From: a virus
Strand: one strand, 5' to 3'
UHGV virus genome: UHGV-0819168
DNA length: 10,131 nt
Position 1 is the stretch's first letter, and every line of letters starts with the position of its first letter. The notes under the pieces were generated by a model that saw nothing but the letters and a program-made list of their open reading frames with translations, had not been told where the DNA came from and did not search any database. The position numbers and the translations under genes were made by a program. Below, piece by piece: positions 1 to 9,548 of the stretch.

Positions 1-127
1 GCGCTGACAGCTTTACCTGGTGATCTTCAGCATCTTCCCGGGCTATTGTGGTTCGCGCAGTGGCTGATTTTGCTGACATCACCACAGGGGGCAGACGGAC
101 CATTGAACCATGGCCTCCGGAACAAAT
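1..127. repeat. Direct repeat copy 1 (127 bp, identical to 2177-2303); left boundary cut by window start
   Basis: Base-for-base identity of 1-127 with 2177-2303; identity stops at 128 (ttt) versus 2304 (aag). Confidence 0.9.
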
Positions 128-2303: not shown

Positions 2304-2343
2304 AAGGGCAAAAATAACAACCACTATCGAAAGCTCACAAACT

Positions 2344-2477
2344 AACCGCAGCACGTTCCTGCATACGACGTGTCTGCGGCATAATCCCAATGATTACTCC
2401 CTGACAGGATTTGCAGGCCACTCAATATCAGGTGCAGTTGATGTATCAACACGATTCAACAATACCCGATATTTATT
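2344..2477. repeat. Direct repeat A (~134 bp, ~90% identical to 3394-3526): 3' end of a tfa gene plus a 34-bp imperfect palindrome (2346-2379)
   Basis: Alignment by eye with 3394-3526; contains the last ~28 codons of the minus-strand tfa-like ORF and the palindrome ccgcagcacgt...acgtgtctgcgg. Confidence 0.85.
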
Positions 2478-2663
2478 CCATGCCTCCAGCAACGATCTTT
2501 CTTCCTCCGTTGCGATTTCCAGATCTACAGCATCCTGCAGTGGCGCAATATACTCACTGAATTCCTGGATGTAGAACTGTGTGGTGACGGTCTTCCAGCC
2601 ATTCGGCTCCTGCTGTATCGAAGCATACCAGGCTATTTCAATATCGCTATGCTGCGGCAGCAT
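2394..2663 (-). CDS. tfa: Tail fibre assembly protein, lambda Tfa-like C-terminal domain (89 aa; short, possibly chimeric or remnant)
   Basis: C-terminal 55 aa match lambda Tfa as recalled: [54 protein letters not shown] versus [56 protein letters not shown]-terminal 35 aa unrelated. Confidence 0.6.
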
Positions 2664-2690
2664 TTAACCCCTTGTAATTCATCGCCATAA

Positions 2691-2719
2691 TTGATTTAAT
2701 TCACAAATAAAACTATAAC
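2691..2719 (+). promoter_or_regulatory. Candidate sigma70 promoter for the methyltransferase gene (TTGATT, 17-bp spacer, TATAAC)
   Basis: -35-like TTGATT at 2691-2696 and -10-like TATAAC at 2714-2719. Its position implies a very short leader and use of ATG 2732 rather than ATG 2720. Confidence 0.35.
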
Positions 2720-3388
2720 ATGGTGAAATCAATGAAAAAAAACACAGATGATGGGGCTAAAATTTACACACCACTTACCCTAAAGCTTTATGACTGGTGG
2801 GTTTTGGGAGTATCAAATCGGCTTGCATGGGGATGTCCTACAAAGGAACACCTTCTTCCACACTTTCTGGAACATGTAGGTAACAACCATCTGGATATTG
2901 GTGTTGGAACTGGGTTTTACCTTACTCACGTACCTGAGAGTAGTCTGATATCTTTAATGGATTTGAACGAAGCTAGCCTGAACGCGGCATCTACAAGGGC
3001 TGGGGAATCAAAAATTAAACATAAAATTAGCCATGATGTTTTTGAACCTTATCCCGCGGCGTTACATGGTCAATTTGATTCCATTTCCATGTTTTACCTT
3101 CTTCACTGCCTGCCTGGAAATATATCTACAAAAAGCTGTGTAATACGCAATGCGGCGCAGGCCTTAACTGACGATGGAACTCTATACGGAGCCACAATTC
3201 TTGGCGATGGAGTTGTGCACAATAGCTTCGGTCAAAAACTGATGCGCATTTACAATCAGAAAGGCATCTTTTCAAACACAAAAGATTCCGAAGAAGGCTT
3301 AACACATATACTCTCAGAGCATTTCGAGAATGTTAAAACCAAGGTTCAAGGTACTGTAGTAATGTTTTCCGCTTCAGGGAAAAAATAG
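2720..3388 (+). CDS. Class I SAM-dependent methyltransferase (Rossmann fold, ~220 aa, substrate unknown); AT-rich moron; alternative start ATG 2732
   Basis: Motif I hh-D-h-G-x-G-x-G (HLDIGVGTGFY), post-I acidic residue (SLMDLNE), motif II (FDSISMFYLLHCLP), motif III (LTDDGTLYGATIL) in canonical order. No DPPY/NPPY or C5-cytosine MTase motifs. Markedly lower GC than flanking genes (about 37% in a hand-counted 60-nt line at 3001-3060). Confidence 0.75.
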   Translation: MVKSMKKNTDDGAKIYTPLTLKLYDWWVLGVSNRLAWGCPTKEHLLPHFLEHVGNNHLDIGVGTGFYLTHVPESSLISLMDLNEASLNAASTRAGESKIKHKISHDVFEPYPAALHGQFDSISMFYLLHCLPGNISTKSCVIRNAAQALTDDGTLYGATILGDGVVHNSFGQKLMRIYNQKGIFSNTKDSEEGLTHILSEHFENVKTKVQGTVVMFSASGKK

Positions 3389-3393
3389 CATCC

Positions 3394-3526
3394 AACCGCA
3401 GCACGTTCTTGCTTAAGACGTGCTGCGGCATAATCCCAATGATTACTCCCTGACAGGGTTCGTAGGCCACTCAATATCAGGTGCAGTTGATGTATCAACA
3501 CGGTTCAGTAACACCCGATACTTTTT
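3394..3526. repeat. Direct repeat B (~133 bp, ~90% identical to 2344-2477): perfect 11-bp-stem palindrome (3396-3428) plus a 27-codon tfa 3' fragment ending in a TAG where Trp is expected
   Basis: ccgcagcacgt (3396-3406) / acgtgctgcgg (3418-3428) perfect inverted repeat. Minus-strand translation of 3446-3526 gives [27 protein letters not shown], preceded by TAG at the Trp position. Confidence 0.85.
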
Positions 3527-3574
3527 CTAGGCTTCCACCACCAGCACGACAAGATGCCGCATACAGTGAACCAG

Positions 3575-3769
3575 TCAGTCCAGTTTTCAGACAACCAGTG
3601 CGTCACCTTTTTGAAGGCGCTTTAAAGCACGTTTTAATCCAGGTCGGCCTGTCCTTGTTCCGCTTAATTTATCTTCAAATATTTGTTCATATCCTGCACA
3701 AACAAGAGCGTTTCGTTGCAGATCTGTATTCTGGTCATTTGTTGATACCCTTACATAGCCAATCAGCAC
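3575..3769 (-). pseudogene. pin: pin/gin-family serine DNA invertase, 5' remnant only (~60 codons; TGG to TGA nonsense then loss of the remaining ~120 codons)
   Basis: From GTG 3769 (RBS gggag upstream): MLIGYVRVSTNDQNTDLQRNALVCAGYEQIFEDKLSGTRTGRPGLKRALKRLQKGDALVV-stop-KLD-stop. This matches the Pin/Gin/Hin/Cin N-terminus including the catalytic Ser in VRVSTNDQ, and stops where Pin continues WKLDRLGRS. Confidence 0.8.
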
Positions 3770-3823
3770 GCTGAATCTCCCGTCCAAAAGCACAAATCAT
3801 GCCATGCAGGCCAGAAACCGCCA

Positions 3824-3849
3824 TTATCTAAAACCTCGGTTTACAGGAA
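3824..3849 (+). other. Gin/Pin-family 26-bp inversion crossover site (pix/gix-like, right-type orientation)
   Basis: ttatctaaaacctcggtttacaggaa; reverse complement ttcctgtaaaccgaggttttagataa differs at one position from the gix sequence as recalled. Lies ~50 bp upstream of the pin start. Confidence 0.7.
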
Positions 3850-3894
3850 ACGGTAAACAAGGCTGGTAACGCCGTTCAGCGTTCCGGCGATAAA

Positions 3895-4863
3895 ATGACC
3901 GGAGAACTGAAAATTGGCACGGTGAATGCGCTGCGAATTTTCAATGATGCCTTCGGTCTTATTTTCCGTCGTTCAGAAGATTTTCTTCATTTCATTCCGA
4001 CGGCTGAAGGACAAGGCGAAAACGGTGATATCGGCCCATTAAGGCCATTCGCTATAAATCTGAGAACAGGTGCTATATCTGTCAGCCACGGGGCCAAAAT
4101 TGATGGTGGGCTGGCGCTTGGTACAGATAACGCACTGGGCGGTAATTCCATTACTCTCGGAGATAACGACACTGGTATTAAACAGGGCGGCGACGGTGTC
4201 CTTTTATTCTATTCAAATGGACAACTGGCATTTGGGCTTCAACCCGCATCTGCTGATTTTTATAAGCGGGTTGCATATATTCATCAGGGAATAATTCCTG
4301 ATGGAAGTGGCGCATTTGCAGACCAGTTGAATAATGCCACCGCGCCTTTTGTTCAGACGCAGTTTGCCTGGAATCCCACTCCTGGTGGTCATTACGTGCC
4401 GATAGTTAAGGGCTTGTCCATTCGCAATGGACAGGGCTATCCCGGCGCGGTCAGCTTTGGGTATTTACTGACAGAACAGTATGGATTTCCGGTTCCATGT
4501 ATTCATATGCGTGGCGATGGCGGTAATGATGCTTTATGGCAGTTTAACCCGAACGATAAATCCTTTATTTCACCGGGTGCTCTTATTGCGGGTGGCGTCC
4601 GTTATAACACCGATGGAAATATATTTGGTGGGTGCTGGGGGTCAAACTTAAATGATTACCTGAATAGTTCTTTTATCAGAAATGTGCGTCTGGGAGGCAG
4701 ACGTTCTGACACATTATATCGCGGAGGACTTTGCGAACCAGGTAATGGTCATGTGACAACAGGATTGCAAATTATTGGTGAGGTTGATGGAGATGACTGG
4801 ATGGTGTCACGACCACTACAAAAATACATTTCTGGTAACTGGTATAACGTTGAACAGGCATAG
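3895..4863 (+). CDS. Silent alternative side-tail-fibre C-terminal cassette; open frame runs from the crossover site (3832) with no own initiation context, expressed only after inversion
   Basis: Frame open from 3832 through the 3824-3849 site in the same phase as stf through the 6905-6930 site. Shares LGGNSITLGDNDTGIKQGGDG and C-terminal RPLQKYISGNWYNV with the expressed stf C-terminus. Confidence 0.65.
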   Translation: MTGELKIGTVNALRIFNDAFGLIFRRSEDFLHFIPTAEGQGENGDIGPLRPFAINLRTGAISVSHGAKIDGGLALGTDNALGGNSITLGDNDTGIKQGGDGVLLFYSNGQLAFGLQPASADFYKRVAYIHQGIIPDGSGAFADQLNNATAPFVQTQFAWNPTPGGHYVPIVKGLSIRNGQGYPGAVSFGYLLTEQYGFPVPCIHMRGDGGNDALWQFNPNDKSFISPGALIAGGVRYNTDGNIFGGCWGSNLNDYLNSSFIRNVRLGGRRSDTLYRGGLCEPGNGHVTTGLQIIGEVDGDDWMVSRPLQKYISGNWYNVEQA

Positions 4864-4878
4864 CCATCAGGAGAATAT

Positions 4879-5406
4879 ATGCAACATCTGAAAAATATTA
4901 CCGCCGGAAACCCCAAAACCATTGAGCAGTATCAGCTTACGAAAAAAGCTGGCGTTATCTGGCTATATACAGAAGACGGTAAAAACTGGTATGACGAATT
5001 AAAAAACTTTCAGGATGATACTTTAAAAATAGCTTATGACCAGAAGGGGATTATTCGTTGTATTGAGAAAGACGTATCAACACTTAACCCTGACGGGTTA
5101 AGTGTTGTTGAGTTACCGAATATAACAGCCAACCGTCGCGCCGATATCTCGGGAAACTGGAAGTTTCTGGATGGTAAAGTAGTAAAGCGGGAATATACAA
5201 AACAGGAACTGCAACAGCAGGCAGAGTTACAAAAAGCCGCTTTGCTTTCCGAAGCGGAGTCTGTGATTCAACCGCTGGAACGTGCTGTCAGACTGAATAT
5301 GGCAACTGATGAGGAACGCACACGACTGGAATCATGGGAACGCTACAGCGTTATGGTCAGCCGTGTGGATACTGCAAAGCCTGAATGGCCACAGAAACCA
5401 GAATAA
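4879..5406 (+). CDS. tfa: Tail fibre assembly protein (second copy, partner of the silent fibre cassette)
   Basis: [38 protein letters not shown].. is 60-70% identical by eye to the 5437-5970 Tfa; C-terminus ..[31 protein letters not shown] is the Tfa C-terminal pattern. AGGAG RBS at 4867-4871. Confidence 0.85.
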
Positions 5407-5416
5407 CAACAAATTA

Positions 5417-5436
5417 AGGCCCGTACGGGCCTTTTC
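5417..5436. terminator. Bidirectional intrinsic terminator between the convergent tfa genes
   Basis: Perfect palindrome ggcccgtacgggcc (5417-5430) flanked by A-rich sequence on one side and T-rich (ttttctt) on the other. Confidence 0.6.
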
Positions 5437-5970
5437 TTATTCTGGTGGTTCCGGGAATGTTACAGGAAGAACCGAGGTATCAGTTGTCTCAACCTGTTGC
5501 ACGTATCGCATCCAGTTCATCAGTTGCTGTCTGTCTGAATCAGTGATAATCCCCAAAGTAAGCTGTGTTTGCCAGAACTGCGTTTTTTCTCTGGCCTGCT
5601 GTAATAATATTTTTTTCTGGTTTTCCGTCTGTAGGCGCAACTCTTCTTCGGTATATACACGTTTAATGACTGCGCCATCTTTAAACATCCATTTACCTGA
5701 GTCGTCAGCACGCCGGTTGGCGGTAATATCAGGAATCTCAACGACGCTATAACCTTCAGGGTTAAGTGTGGAGGCATCTTTGGTTATGGCAACAATAATA
5801 TTATTTTCATCGTAAACAATCTTTATGGTGTCTGGCTGAAAGTTTTTCACTTCCTCATACCAGTTTTTTCCGTCCTCAGAGTAAAGCCAGATAACTCCGT
5901 GTTTCTTTGTTAACTCATACTGTTCCAGTGTTTTAGCATTACCCGCTTTTATGTTCTTTAAGTGCATCAT
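5437..5970 (-). CDS. tfa: Tail fibre assembly protein (currently expressed orientation), translationally coupled to stf
   Basis: [58 protein letters not shown].. matches the E. coli prophage TfaE/TfaR-type family. ATG lies 1 nt after the stf stop. Confidence 0.9.
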
Positions 5971-5971
5971 A

Positions 5972-8797
5972 TTAAACGCTCGCTACATTATACCAGGTGC
6001 CATTTATATACTTTTGAACGGGTCTGTAATAAACGCCCGCTATATTATCGGCAGAGTTAGACCCTGTATCCTGAACATTAATACCAGACAATACATGACC
6101 TGAAGGGCACTGGAAATTCCATGTTTGCCAGTTGTTCACTCCATAATATTGCTGTGAACCAAGTCGAACATCTTTCACATAACGGGAATCAAAGTTACCG
6201 TAATCCGAGGGGTTAACACGCCCTGTAATATTTATGGTTTTATTACTTTGAATGCTTCCGGAGACAAAGCGCATAACATGGACGTTATTAGCATAAACAT
6301 CCAGATTACCATCGCCATTTTGTTTAAAGCCCGTGTCATTATCACCCAATACAATCGAATTACCGCCAAGAGCACTGGATGTTCCGATACCCAGTGCACC
6401 ATTCAGTTGACCACCAGATAACGGCAGTGCACCAACATCTCCTGCTGAAGGCTTTCTGGTGGTGGTGTAAAATTCGGACCAGTCGGCTTCAAAACCATAA
6501 CCATCACGGGCTGAACGATAAAAAATACCGCCATTTTTATAATTAATCCGAAACTGAGCTGCAGGACAACTTCCTTCTCCCATATAAAAATGAATAATTA
6601 ACGTTGATGCACCACTAATAGTTGCGTTATAGGCTCCGCTACTCCAGTTCCATCCAACTGCTTTATCATTCGCAACGGTGCTTCCTGTTTTCCCTAAGGC
6701 AAACGCACCAACATGACTTGCTTTTAATGTGATATCGGAGGAACCATCAAAAGCCACATTGCTTATTTTCCTGGCAGTTTTTAATTTTGCAGCTGTAGAA
6801 GCATTGCCGGATAGTTCACCAGAAAGGCCACCGCTGAATGTTTGTCGATTAGTCCAGGTATTCGCTGTACTGAGTAACGGTATTTTCTCCCCGCTTGTGC
6901 CGAGTTCTCGTAAACCGAGGTATTCGATAACGGCGGCAACGGTCGATTTCGCAAGAATATCCCGCCCAACTTTTGTCAGGGTTGCCAGACTGGCAACATC
7001 ATTCCCCGTAAAATACGGAAACCTGTCTGCCGCAGTAGCAAGCCCGGCCAGCGCCGTCAGGGTGGCATCTTTCGGTTGCTTACCCGCAAGCGCGCTAGTC
7101 ATGGTGGTCGCAAAATTCGGGTCGTTGCCCAACGCCGCAGCCAGCTCGTTCAGCGTATTCAGTGCGTCAGGCGACGAGTCCACGAGGGCAGCGATCGCAG
7201 CCATAACATAAGCCGTGCTTGCGATTTGGGTATTATTCGTTCCCTGTCGCGCAGTTGGTGTTGTTGGCGTTCCGGTCAGTGCAGGACTATTTAAGGGCGC
7301 TTTCTTGTTCGTTTCACCCATTACCGCCTTAACCGCTTTTGGCGTTGCCGCCAGTGACTCGGAAGTGCTGTTGGTCGCACTGCTGAGCTGTACTATCCCC
7401 TTTTTCGTCGTGCTCGCATCCTCAAGCGCCACGGCGGATGCAATATCCTCTGCCCGTTTTGCCGCTGTCTCGGCGCGCGTTGCCGCGGATTCCGCCGTAC
7501 TTTTGCTCTGAGCTGCCGCCGTCGCACTGCCAGCTGCCTCTGTCGCCTTCGTGGATGCCGTCGTGGCGCTGCCCTTTGCTGCTGACGCCTGTCTGGTCGC
7601 CTCATCTTTTGAAGCAGACGCAGATGATGCCGATGACGCCGCTGAACTGGCTGACGATGCGGCTGCCGCCTTAGAGGAAGCAGCATTGTCTGCTGAAGTC
7701 TTTGCATTTGTTTCAGAGGTTTTTGCTGCAGAAGCAGACCTCGCTGCTGCAGTGGCTTGCTCAGTGGCTTTGCCAGCCTTCGTTGTGGCTGTTGAAGCGG
7801 ATGATGCGGCGCTTTCTGCCGATTTTCCGGCGGCGGTGGCACTGGCTGAGGCCTGCCCGGCACTTGTTGACGCGGCACTGGCAGATAATGCAGCCGCTGT
7901 TTTTGAACCTGCCGCAGCTGAGGCGCTCTGTCCCGCTGCTGTTTCAGAAGACTTAGCGTTCGTCTCGGACGTTTTTGCCGCCTTCGCGGAATTTCCTGCC
8001 GCCGTTGCCGAGGAAGCTGCACTACTGGCACTTGATGATGCATTCGTTTCTGAAGATTTCGCTGCCTCTTTTGAGGCCGCCGCACCCCGTGCCGAGGTGG
8101 CAGCTTCTGACGCCTTCGTGGTCGCTGTGGATGCAGAAGTGGCTGCCGATTTTTGTGATGCTGCGGCATTCGTTTCTGACGTTTTCGCGGCACTGGCGCT
8201 GGTAGCTGCCGCGCTTTTTGATGACTCTGCAGCAGCAGCACTTTTTGCTGCTTCACGGGCCTTTGTCGATGCCGTTCCTGCGCTGGAAGACGCTGACTGA
8301 GCCGACGACGCGGCCTGTCCGGCTGACGTGCTGGCGGCACGTGATGAGGCTGCAGCATCGGTTGCATGAGTTGCCGCCTCGCTGGCTGATGCACTGGCAT
8401 CGCTGGCTGATTTTTTCGCGGCTGCCGTATTCTGTGCAACCGCGGAGGCGTTACGTGACACCTCTTCTACCATCTGCTCAAAGCGGCGCAGTGCCTCCGG
8501 TCGGACATCATCCTCCGTCATGGCACCGAGAAAATCATTCAGCGTACCTGGTCTGGAACCTTCATAGACGGTAATGGTCCCGGCATGTGAAGGCGGAAAA
8601 CCTTCAACCAGCAGGGTGACGCTGTACTGACCATGCTCAACATCCATGCTGTAACGTCCGGCTTCATCCGGATTTTCAGAGGCCACCGTGTTCACCACCA
8701 CCGTGCTGCTGGTTCGTCTGGCCTTCAGCACAATGGTGCAGTTCTGTACTGGTTTTCCTGTGCCATCTTTAAGCACGCCAGAAATTTTTACTGTCAT
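5972..8797 (-). CDS. stf: Side tail fibre protein, lambda Stf-like (941 aa): conserved N-terminal domain, long Ala/Ser/Thr-rich repeat region, C-terminal ~310 aa encoded inside the invertible segment
   Basis: N-terminus [74 protein letters not shown] is near-identical to lambda Stf as recalled; repeated AAKTSETNA units; VIEYLG junction at the crossover site. Confidence 0.9.
6905..6930 (+). other. Gin/Pin-family 26-bp inversion crossover site inside stf (left-type orientation)
   Basis: ttctcgtaaaccgaggtattcgataa resembles gixL as recalled (TTCCTGTAAACCGAGGTTTTGGATAA), is inverted relative to the 3824-3849 site, and encodes VIEYLGLRE in the stf frame. Confidence 0.65.
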
Positions 8798-8948: not shown

Positions 8949-9548
8949 TCAGAAACGGTATCCGATACCAACAATAAATGCATCCGTTCGCCAGTCGCCA
9001 CTACCGGAACCTTCATAAGCAAGGTCAATGGTCACGGATTCGGTCGGGTTAAACTGCACGCCAGCCCCCCACGCCAGAGACGTGTTGCTGTGGCGACCGT
9101 CATCACTTCCGGTCAGCACATCGTGCGTTTTCCCCTTGTTGTCAGTTACGCGGAGATAATCCCCGGAGAAAGTCGACACACGGCTGTAAGCCACACCCGC
9201 CATCGCATACGCGCTGAACCATTCATTCACGCGTACAGACGGCCCCGCCATCACGCTGAACCAGCGGTTACGCACGGAATCTTCATGCCAGCGGGTATCG
9301 CTGTAGCGCGTTTTTTGCTCATCCTCAGCATTGGCATAACTGAAGGACGTAATCAGCCCCAGCGCGTCCGTAAACTCATAACGGTATTTCACGTTAATCC
9401 CGTTCAGATCATCACTACCGGGAACGTTCGTCGAGGCATGGAGATACCCCGCGCTCAGCGTGGACTGATGTTCTGCTGCACTCGCTGGCGTAGCAGCGGC
9501 GACCTGCCAGACTACTGCGGACAAAATAACAGCACATAATTTACGCAT
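8949..9548 (-). CDS. lom: Lom/Ail/OmpX-family outer membrane beta-barrel protein (lambda Lom homologue)
   Basis: Signal peptide MRKLCAVILSAVVWQVAAATPASA; motifs GINVKYRYEFTD, SVMAGPSV, SAYAMAGVAYSR, AYEGSGSGDWRTDAFIVGIGYRF match lambda Lom as recalled. RBS gagagg upstream. Confidence 0.9.
   Translation of the reverse strand: MRKLCAVILSAVVWQVAAATPASAAEHQSTLSAGYLHASTNVPGSDDLNGINVKYRYEFTDALGLITSFSYANAEDEQKTRYSDTRWHEDSVRNRWFSVMAGPSVRVNEWFSAYAMAGVAYSRVSTFSGDYLRVTDNKGKTHDVLTGSDDGRHSNTSLAWGAGVQFNPTESVTIDLAYEGSGSGDWRTDAFIVGIGYRF

What the first reader, a model, noticed from the sequence alone, without database searches (positions are those of the whole stretch)
3575..3793. Invertase gene pin is truncated to ~60 codons, leaving the switch dependent on an invertase supplied in trans (or frozen)
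The pin reading frame starts normally (RBS, GTG, MLIGYVRVSTNDQ..) but ends after ..KGDALVV at a TGA where Pin family proteins have Trp; after three more codons (KLD) homology is lost and the sequence runs into repeat B. The catalytic Ser region remains but the rest of the catalytic domain and the DNA-binding helix-turn-helix are gone. The 5' part of invertase genes in this family carries the Fis-dependent recombinational enhancer, so the cis elements may be intact even though the enzyme is not.
Basis: partly seen in the sequence, partly recalled or inferred. Interest (0 to 1): 0.55.

Follow-up and report, generated by a model that had tools for sequence, protein, structure and literature searches.

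The report
Dead invertase gene, switch still flips
This is the stump of a DNA-invertase gene beside a prophage tail-fibre switch in E. coli ST131; the switch still flips using an invertase from another resident prophage, and this was already published for strain EC958 in 2014.

Summary
On the minus strand (GTG 3769 to TGA 3587) lies a 60-codon stump of a Gin/Pin-family serine invertase gene, next to a 3.1-kb invertible tail-fibre segment. Homology continues past the first stop to about codon 78. The gene is a gin-like/pinE-like mosaic fused in frame to the 3' end of a tfa gene. The W61 stop is a late hit on a gene already dead.

The switch is not frozen. Among complete E. coli genomes with this remnant, 144 have the window's orientation and 239 the flipped one, each at 100% identity across the predicted junction. 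One assembly contains both. The enzyme must therefore act in trans. ST131 genomes carry intact invertases in a P2-like prophage (Phi1) and a Mu-like prophage (Phi2). Two Phi1-less strains show opposite orientations, so Phi2's enzyme is also a candidate.

The stump keeps two Fis-consensus sites 48 bp apart, about 100 bp from the crossover site, positioned as in Mu gin.

All of this is prophage Phi4 of EC958. Forde et al. 2014 reported the truncated invertase, the inversion and the trans hypothesis, and RefSeq annotates the pseudogene. Verdict: real, correctly interpreted, already known, low interest.

The parts
3538..3769 (-). Remnant of a Gin/Pin-family serine invertase gene. Codon 1 is GTG at 3769-3767. 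Codons 1-60 are translatable. In-frame stops are TGA at 3589-3587 (Trp61) and TGA at 3577-3575 (Arg65). Homology runs to about codon 78. The 5' part is gin-like; 3563-3538 is identical to e14 pinE.
   Evidence: RefSeq annotates it as a pseudogene, 'recombinase family protein, missing C-terminus'.
3777..3781 (-). Ribosome-binding site GGGAG, 8 nt upstream of the GTG start, at the same position as the annotated RBS of Mu gin.
3685..3747 (.). Putative Fis-dependent recombinational enhancer inside the remnant. The two 15-bp Fis-consensus sites are 3733-3747 (TATCAACAAATGACC on the coding strand, identical to Mu and Phi1) and 3685-3699 (GTGCAGGATATGAAC, one change at an unconstrained position). Their centres lie 97 and 145 bp from the crossover core.
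   Evidence: motif scan, same positions in Mu gin, the Phi1 invertase gene and the remnant. Published architecture in PMC3798978. Function is inferred, not tested.
3824..3849 (.). Invertase-proximal 26-bp crossover site (coding strand TTCCTGTAAACC GA GGTTTTAGATAA). The core dinucleotide is at 3836-3837.
   Evidence: It matches the Phi4 sites in Table 3 of Forde et al. 2014 with the inner half-sites exchanged.
6905..6930 (.). Distal 26-bp crossover site inside the stf gene (TTCTCGTAAACC GA GGTATTCGATAA). The core is at 6917-6918, in inverted orientation relative to the first site.
3836..6918 (.). Invertible segment, 3083 nt between the cores. It carries the silent alternative Stf C-terminus (3838-4863, + strand) with its tfa (4879-5406, +), and the currently expressed Stf C-terminus (5972-6918, -) with its tfa (5437-5970, -).
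   Evidence: in silico flip gives an in-frame 968-aa Stf. (both orientations found in nature).
6919..8797 (-). Constant N-terminal part of the side tail fibre gene stf, onto which either C-terminus is joined.
3443..3537 (-). 3' end of a tfa gene (about the last 28 codons plus its stop at 3445-3443), fused in frame to invertase codon ~78. Its Trp codon is mutated to TAG (3529-3527). The breakpoint lies at about 3533-3545 within a short microhomology (GCTGG.GGAG).
   Evidence: RefSeq annotates 'tail fiber assembly protein, missing N-terminus'.

Best explanation
This is the decayed 5' stump of a Gin-family serine invertase gene. It sits beside an otherwise intact G-segment-type tail-fibre switch in a lambdoid prophage: Phi4 of E. 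coli ST131, next to trpA/ompW.

A deletion joined invertase codon ~78 to the 3' end of a tfa gene. Nonsense mutations then accumulated: R65 first, then W61 and the tfa Trp codon. The stump cannot make an active enzyme.

The switch still inverts because everything needed in cis survives. The two 26-bp crossover sites have matching GA cores. The first ~130 nt of the dead gene hold the enhancer with its two Fis sites. A related invertase from another resident prophage supplies the catalysis in trans. The candidates are the P2-like Phi1 enzyme (199 aa) and the Mu-like Phi2 enzyme (190 aa).

Shown here: the truncation, its junction, the order of the lesions, intact cis sites, in-frame alternative fibres, both orientations in nature, and intact invertase genes elsewhere in the same genomes. 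Inferred: that the Fis sites work as an enhancer, and which enzyme does the flipping.
For: Truncation and homology.

Order of lesions: the H9Ecoli allele has the same junction and the R65 TGA but intact Trp61, Cys27 and tfa Trp.

Switch cargo is intact: an in silico flip gives a 968-aa in-frame Stf.

Active switching: a synthetic flipped junction is found at 100% identity. Locus-specific counts are 144 genomes in the window's orientation and 239 flipped, which together equal the ~380 genomes carrying the remnant. Assembly GCF_001874485.1 holds both orientations, on the chromosome and on a 32.7-kb contig with the same trpB-trpA-ompW flanks. Half-sites are exchanged exactly at the core between this window and EC958.

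Published support: PacBio reads of one EC958 culture contain both orientations, and the authors propose trans action (PMC4134206). PCR confirmed switching in ST131 'Bone' isolates, where only the other two prophages encode an invertase.

Helpers: intact invertase genes in EC958 Phi1 and Phi2. The Phi1 gene's 3' part is 100% identical in many remnant-bearing strains. The Phi1 and Phi2 enzymes are 83% identical, with an identical STIYRYHPVG segment in the DNA-binding domain.

Enhancer: Fis-consensus sites at +97 and +145 in the remnant, Mu gin and Phi1. This fits the published 65-bp element about 100 bp from the crossover site, with 47 bp between Fis-site centres.
Against: No experiment here links a specific enzyme to the flipping.

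AR_451 (orientation A) and H105 (orientation B) both lack Phi1 at serS and have only one other pin-like locus, Phi2. Phi1 therefore cannot be the sole explanation, unless those orientations were fixed before Phi1 was lost.

The window lineage has 2 substitutions inside the ~63-bp enhancer against 3 in the other ~190 nt of the remnant. There is thus no sign of purifying selection on the enhancer, and its activity is untested.

The Fis consensus used is degenerate. About 2 matches per 300 nt are expected by chance, and 5-6 were seen.
Confidence: 0.9

Rival explanations
1. The switch is frozen. With no cis-encoded enzyme the segment no longer inverts, and the two orientations are old, vertically inherited states.
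For: The invertase is certainly dead. Population counts alone do not give a rate.
Against: Both orientations coexist in a single assembly from one culture. They also coexist in PacBio reads of one EC958 culture, and switching was confirmed by PCR in a single isolate. Orientation is mixed 38:62 across ~380 genomes that are 99% or more identical at the remnant.
Confidence: 0.03
2. Inversion occurs by RecA-dependent homologous recombination between the short inverted repeats, not by a site-specific invertase.
For: The two sites form a 32-nt imperfect inverted repeat. Exchange anywhere within the shared GTAAACCGAGGT stretch would give the same products.
Against: The longest perfect match is only 12 nt. 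By general knowledge that is below the ~20-25 bp needed for efficient RecA exchange. The sites fit the 26-bp Gin-family consensus with identical GA cores. The high within-culture frequency implied by separately assembled contigs is typical of invertase switches.
Confidence: 0.03
3. The Phi1 (P2-like) invertase is the only helper, as proposed in 2014; Phi2's enzyme does not act on Phi4.
For: Phi1 and Phi4 crossover sites are nearly identical, whereas Phi2's sites differ more and have a different core (Table 3). The Phi1 gene is 100% conserved in many remnant-bearing strains.
Against: AR_451 and H105 lack Phi1 at serS, keep only the Phi2 invertase, and have opposite Phi4 orientations. The Phi1 and Phi2 enzymes share an identical STIYRYHPVG segment in the DNA-binding domain. 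Cross-complementation among Gin, Cin, Pin and Hin is established knowledge. The core only has to match between the two partner sites.
Confidence: 0.3
4. The stop codon is a sequencing or assembly error and the gene is full length.
For: None found.
Against: The identical sequence is present in ~380 independent complete genomes. Beyond codon ~78 the sequence is tfa, not invertase, so no read-through could restore the protein.
Confidence: 0.01

Closest known systems
Prophage Phi4 of E. coli ST131 EC958 (Forde et al. 2014, PLoS One 9:e104400; PMC4134206)
   Same: It is the same locus. It has the same 26-bp crossover sites, a ~3.1-kb invertible segment (3106 bp in the paper) and a 'severely truncated' invertase gene. 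Inversion was observed, and trans action by the Phi1 enzyme was proposed. The remnant is 100% identical to EC958.
   Different: The window shows the opposite orientation to the EC958 reference. It has an intact lom and an extra integrase fragment at its left end. The paper does not describe the pin'::'tfa junction, the multiple stops, the retained enhancer, population frequencies or Phi1-less strains.
Bacteriophage Mu G segment with gin and its sis enhancer
   Same: The layout is the same: stf constant part, then the invertible segment with two alternative C-termini and assembly genes, then the crossover site, then the invertase gene reading away from the segment with the enhancer in its 5' end. 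Identity is 92-95% over 272 nt from the crossover site into the gene.
   Different: Mu encodes a functional 193-aa Gin. Here the gene stops at codon 61 and ends at codon ~78. The host element is a lambdoid prophage, not a transposable phage.
e14 P segment with pinE (E. coli K-12)
   Same: It is a defective-prophage tail-fibre switch of the same family. A 26-nt stretch of the remnant (3563-3538) is identical to pinE codons 70-78.
   Different: pinE is intact (184 aa) and acts in cis. Overall the remnant is only 74% identical to PinE in protein sequence and is much closer to gin in its 5' part.

Membership tests
Serine DNA invertase, Gin/Pin/Hin/Cin subfamily (as a functional enzyme) | N-terminal catalytic region with the nucleophilic serine (Ser9) in the YxRVST motif | tested here: met
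   MLIGYVRVSTNDQ is present. Pfam Resolvase E = 2.9e-15. Gin 4m6f E = 8e-38.
Serine DNA invertase, Gin/Pin/Hin/Cin subfamily (as a functional enzyme) | Complete ~100-residue catalytic domain followed by the oligomerisation helix E | tested here: not met
   Only Pfam profile positions 2-69 of 145 are covered. There are stops at codons 61 and 65, and homology ends at codon ~78.
Serine DNA invertase, Gin/Pin/Hin/Cin subfamily (as a functional enzyme) | C-terminal helix-turn-helix DNA-binding domain | tested here: not met
   It is absent. The sequence after codon ~78 is tfa-derived. Compare the intact Phi1, Phi2, Gin and PinE proteins.
Gin-type invertible tail-fibre switch (G, C and P segments) | Two 26-bp crossover sites in inverted orientation with identical central dinucleotides | tested here: met
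   Sites at 3824-3849 and 6905-6930, with cores TC/GA. They fit the consensus quoted in Forde et al. Table 3.
Gin-type invertible tail-fibre switch (G, C and P segments) | Inversion joins alternative in-frame tail-fibre C-termini, each with its own assembly gene | tested here: met
   The present orientation gives a 941-aa Stf and the in silico flip a 968-aa Stf. Both Caudo_TAP genes are intact.
Gin-type invertible tail-fibre switch (G, C and P segments) | Fis-dependent enhancer in cis: two Fis sites about 48 bp apart, natively ~100 bp from a crossover site within the invertase gene | tested here: inconclusive
   Consensus sites lie at +97 and +145, identical in position to Mu gin and Phi1, with 2 substitutions in the element. 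Fis binding and enhancer activity cannot be tested with these tools.
Gin-type invertible tail-fibre switch (G, C and P segments) | Functional invertase encoded adjacent to the segment | tested here: not met
   The adjacent gene is a pseudogene. Intact homologues lie ~530 kb (Phi1) and ~480 kb (Phi2) away in EC958.
Gin-type invertible tail-fibre switch (G, C and P segments) | Both orientations occur in populations | tested here: met
   144 versus 239 genomes. Both orientations are in one assembly. Published read-level and PCR evidence.

The most novel reading that the evidence does not exclude
The stump persists as a cis-regulatory module rather than as mere debris. In this reading, its first ~130 nt are the only Fis enhancer available to the switch. 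That would make Phi4's host-range switch dependent on invertases of unrelated co-resident prophages (P2-like Phi1 and/or Mu-like Phi2), a cross-prophage dependency. The same pin'::'tfa remnant has spread by recombination to other lambdoid prophages in other chromosomal sites: about 200 further genomes carry an allele 98.4% identical in the one example examined (H9Ecoli). My evidence does not exclude this, but it gives no positive sign of selection on the enhancer.
Probability: 0.3. Interest if true: 0.35.

Novelty: already known. Interest (0 to 1): 0.15.

Why it matters
The locus is a clear natural example of a phase-variation switch that outlives its own recombinase by borrowing one from another mobile element. 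Annotators should not call such switches dead just because the adjacent invertase is a pseudogene. Assemblers should expect spurious extra contigs at such loci: RefSeq record CP015087 is labelled 'extrachromosomal' for this reason. For ST131 biology the consequence is probably small, because Phi4 is a degraded prophage. The principle and this specific case were published in 2014, so the finding adds detail rather than discovery.

Tried and rejected
(1) My first orientation counts used 800-nt junction queries and gave 144 versus 374. I rejected the 374 as inflated, because Phi1-like and H9-type loci could reach 80% coverage. I replaced it with 1000-nt locus-specific queries, which gave 144 versus 239.

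(2) I looked for the window's exact source genome. The best complete genomes cover only 91-93%, so the source strain is not in the collection. The left end (1-935) differs from the JJ1886 type.

(3) A literature search for 'recombinational enhancer/Fis/Gin/sis' returned mostly irrelevant fish papers. A six-term search found nothing. A guessed PMC id for R.C. Johnson's review was not held. Enhancer coordinates for Mu therefore rest on the Hin description in PMC3798978 and the title of Kahmann et al. 1985, not on a Mu footprint.

(4) The promoter/terminator consensus scan of 3300-3900 found nothing. It gives no information on whether the stump is transcribed.

(5) A first fetch of AR_451 at the distance-predicted position showed no prophage but was uninformative until the Phi1 attachment site (downstream of serS) was known.

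(6) I considered whether the enhancer is more conserved than the rest of the stump. It is not: 2 of 5 lineage-specific substitutions fall within it.

(7) I could not make a full per-genome cross-tabulation of orientation against invertase content, because the search tool lists at most 60 records.

Full report
WHAT IS THERE

The feature lies on the minus strand. An RBS (GGGAG, 3781-3777) precedes a GTG at 3769-3767. The frame reads MLIGYVRVSTNDQNTDLQRNALVCAGYEQIFEDKLSGTRTGRPGLKRALKRLQKGDALVV and stops at TGA 3589-3587. The 60 residues match the Pfam Resolvase N-terminal domain (E = 2.9e-15, profile positions 2-69 of 145). They match the crystallised Gin invertase at E = 8e-38.

Homology does not end after KLD. 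A second TGA (3577-3575) replaces Arg65. The same frame then reads LVHCMRHLVVLV, which aligns with residues 66-77 of the family.

At the DNA level the stump is a mosaic. From the crossover site to about codon 64 it is 92-95% identical to gin of Mu, D108 and SfMu, and to the EC958 Phi1 invertase gene. Positions 3563-3538 are then identical to e14 pinE over 26 nt.

The gene truly ends at about 3533-3545. There a short microhomology (GCTGG.GGAG) joins it, in frame, to the last ~28 codons of a tail-fibre assembly gene. Its Trp codon is itself mutated to TAG (3529-3527).

CONTEXT

The window is the right arm of a lambdoid prophage. It runs J, lom, a 941-aa stf and tfa on the minus strand. These are followed by an inverted tfa and an alternative stf C-terminus, the crossover site and the invertase stump.

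Two 26-bp Gin-type crossover sites lie at 3824-3849 and 6905-6930, with cores TC and GA. Inverting the sequence between the cores in silico gives an in-frame 968-aa Stf with the other C-terminus. The cargo of the switch is therefore intact.

The locus matches E. coli ST131 genomes at 100% identity, next to trpA and a truncated ompW. RefSeq already marks the stump as a pseudogene, 'recombinase family protein, missing C-terminus'.

IS THE SWITCH FROZEN?

No. I built the junction expected after inversion and searched 5,426 complete E. coli genomes. Queries that only this locus can cover at 80% or more (700 nt outside plus 300 nt inside the segment) found the window's orientation in 144 genomes and the flipped one in 239. 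The top hits of each were 100% identical over 100% of the query.

The sum of 383 equals the number of genomes carrying the remnant at 99% identity or more (379-380). Assembly GCF_001874485.1 contains both orientations. One is on the chromosome. The other is on a 32.7-kb contig with the same trpB-trpA-ompW flanks, which is the signature of a mixed culture.

Comparing the window with EC958, the inner half-sites are exchanged exactly at the core.

WHO SUPPLIES THE ENZYME?

EC958 has two intact family members. One is a 199-aa gene in the P2-like prophage Phi1, downstream of serS. The other is a 190-aa gene in the Mu-like prophage Phi2, next to aroA. The 3' part of the Phi1 gene, which the stump lacks, is 100% conserved in many remnant-bearing strains.

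Two ST131 genomes, AR_451 and H105, have serS directly followed by dmsA, so they have no Phi1 there. They keep the identical Phi2 enzyme (WP_000904922.1) and have only two pin-like loci in the chromosome. Their Phi4 segments are in opposite orientations.

This does not prove that Phi2's enzyme flips Phi4, because the orientations could predate loss of Phi1. It does make Phi2 a second candidate. The two enzymes are 83% identical and share an identical STIYRYHPVG segment in the DNA-binding domain.

THE ENHANCER

Published work on Hin describes a 65-bp enhancer with a Fis site at each end and 47 bp between the site centres. It normally sits about 100 bp from a recombination site. For Mu the stimulating site lies 'within the invertase gene' (PMC3798978).

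The scan gives sites centred 97 and 145 bp from the core in Mu gin, in the Phi1 gene and in the remnant alike. In window coordinates they are 3733-3747 and 3685-3699.

The first site is identical in all three sequences. The second has one G-to-A change at an unconstrained position; this change also makes Cys27 into Tyr.

The evidence is positional and by consensus only. The lineage shows no extra conservation of this stretch: 2 of 5 lineage-specific substitutions fall in it.

HISTORY OF THE LESION

About 200 further genomes carry a second allele of the remnant. I examined one example, strain H9Ecoli, where the allele is 98.4% identical and sits in a degraded prophage next to bio/ybhB. It has the identical pin'::'tfa junction and the R65 TGA. 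It still has TGG at Trp61, TGG at the tfa Trp codon, Cys27 and the Mu-type enhancer bases.

The deletion and the R65 stop therefore came first. The three stop codons (TGA, TGA, TAG, replacing TGG, CGN and TGG) and the C27Y change are consistent with G-to-A or C-to-T transitions. For R65 this assumes a CGA ancestor, since Mu has CGC and e14 pinE has CGG.

PRIOR KNOWLEDGE

This is prophage Phi4 of EC958. Forde et al. 2014 (PMC4134206) listed the same crossover sites and a 3106-bp invertible segment. They found both orientations in PacBio reads of one culture. [quoted passage not shown]

A later preprint confirmed switching by PCR in the BP-4795-like prophage of ST131 wound isolates. It noted that only the P88-like and phiE255-like prophages encode an invertase.

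VERDICT

- the true extent and mosaic nature of the stump;
- the in-frame tfa junction;
- the order of the lesions;
- the positional conservation of the Fis sites;
- the orientation frequencies across ~380 genomes;
- the observation that Phi1-less strains show both orientations.

Noticed in passing
window 1-127 and 2177-2303; 48-797: There is a perfect 127-nt direct repeat. The first copy runs into a 249-aa ORF with a Phage_integrase domain (residues 66-240), whose first 27 residues come from the repeat. JJ1886-type ST131 genomes align only from window position 936 and lack this left end (they have ompW'-ash-Rha instead). The window's source strain therefore has a different, possibly tandem-prophage, arrangement. 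No complete genome covers more than 93% of the window.
   Followed up: partly
window 8949-9548 versus L001 17650-20842: The lom (Ail/Lom) gene is intact in the window. In JJ1886 and many clade-C ST131 genomes it is split by an IS21-family ISEc12 insertion.
   Followed up: no
L013 (NZ_CP029180.1, strain H9Ecoli) 5880-6320: An older allele of the same pin'::'tfa remnant (64-codon ORF, Trp61 intact) sits in a different chromosomal site (bio/ybhB region), in a prophage cut by IS1. About 200 genomes fall in this second class of matches to the remnant (208 records at 95-99% identity; the sampled rows were 98.1-98.4%). The truncated module predates ST131 and has moved between prophages.
   Followed up: partly
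L003 3052-5712; L010 32042-34696; L012 8884-11538: The tail-fibre region next to the Phi2 (Mu-like) invertase is annotated with three different gene arrangements in EC958, AR_451 and H105. This suggests a multi-segment inversion system that is itself active.
   Followed up: no
window 2330-3540: A class I SAM-dependent methyltransferase gene (2720-3388, + strand) is bracketed by two direct copies of a tfa 3' end plus hairpin (2344-2491 and 3394-3540, about 89-90% identical). It looks like a cargo cassette inserted between duplicated tail-fibre-module ends.
   Followed up: no
L006 (NZ_CP015087.1, 32.7-kb record): This RefSeq record is labelled 'extrachromosomal', but it carries chromosomal trpB-trpA-ompW flanks and the Phi4 segment in the alternative orientation. 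It also has several frameshifted genes. It is almost certainly a spurious contig from a mixed-orientation culture, not a replicon.
   Followed up: partly
window 7390-8470 (stf codons ~110-470): The constant part of Stf contains a region of about 370 residues rich in Ala, Ser and Thr. It shows periodic DNA repeats (families D3 and D4, 29-33 nt units), and several long spurious ORFs lie in other frames.
   Followed up: no
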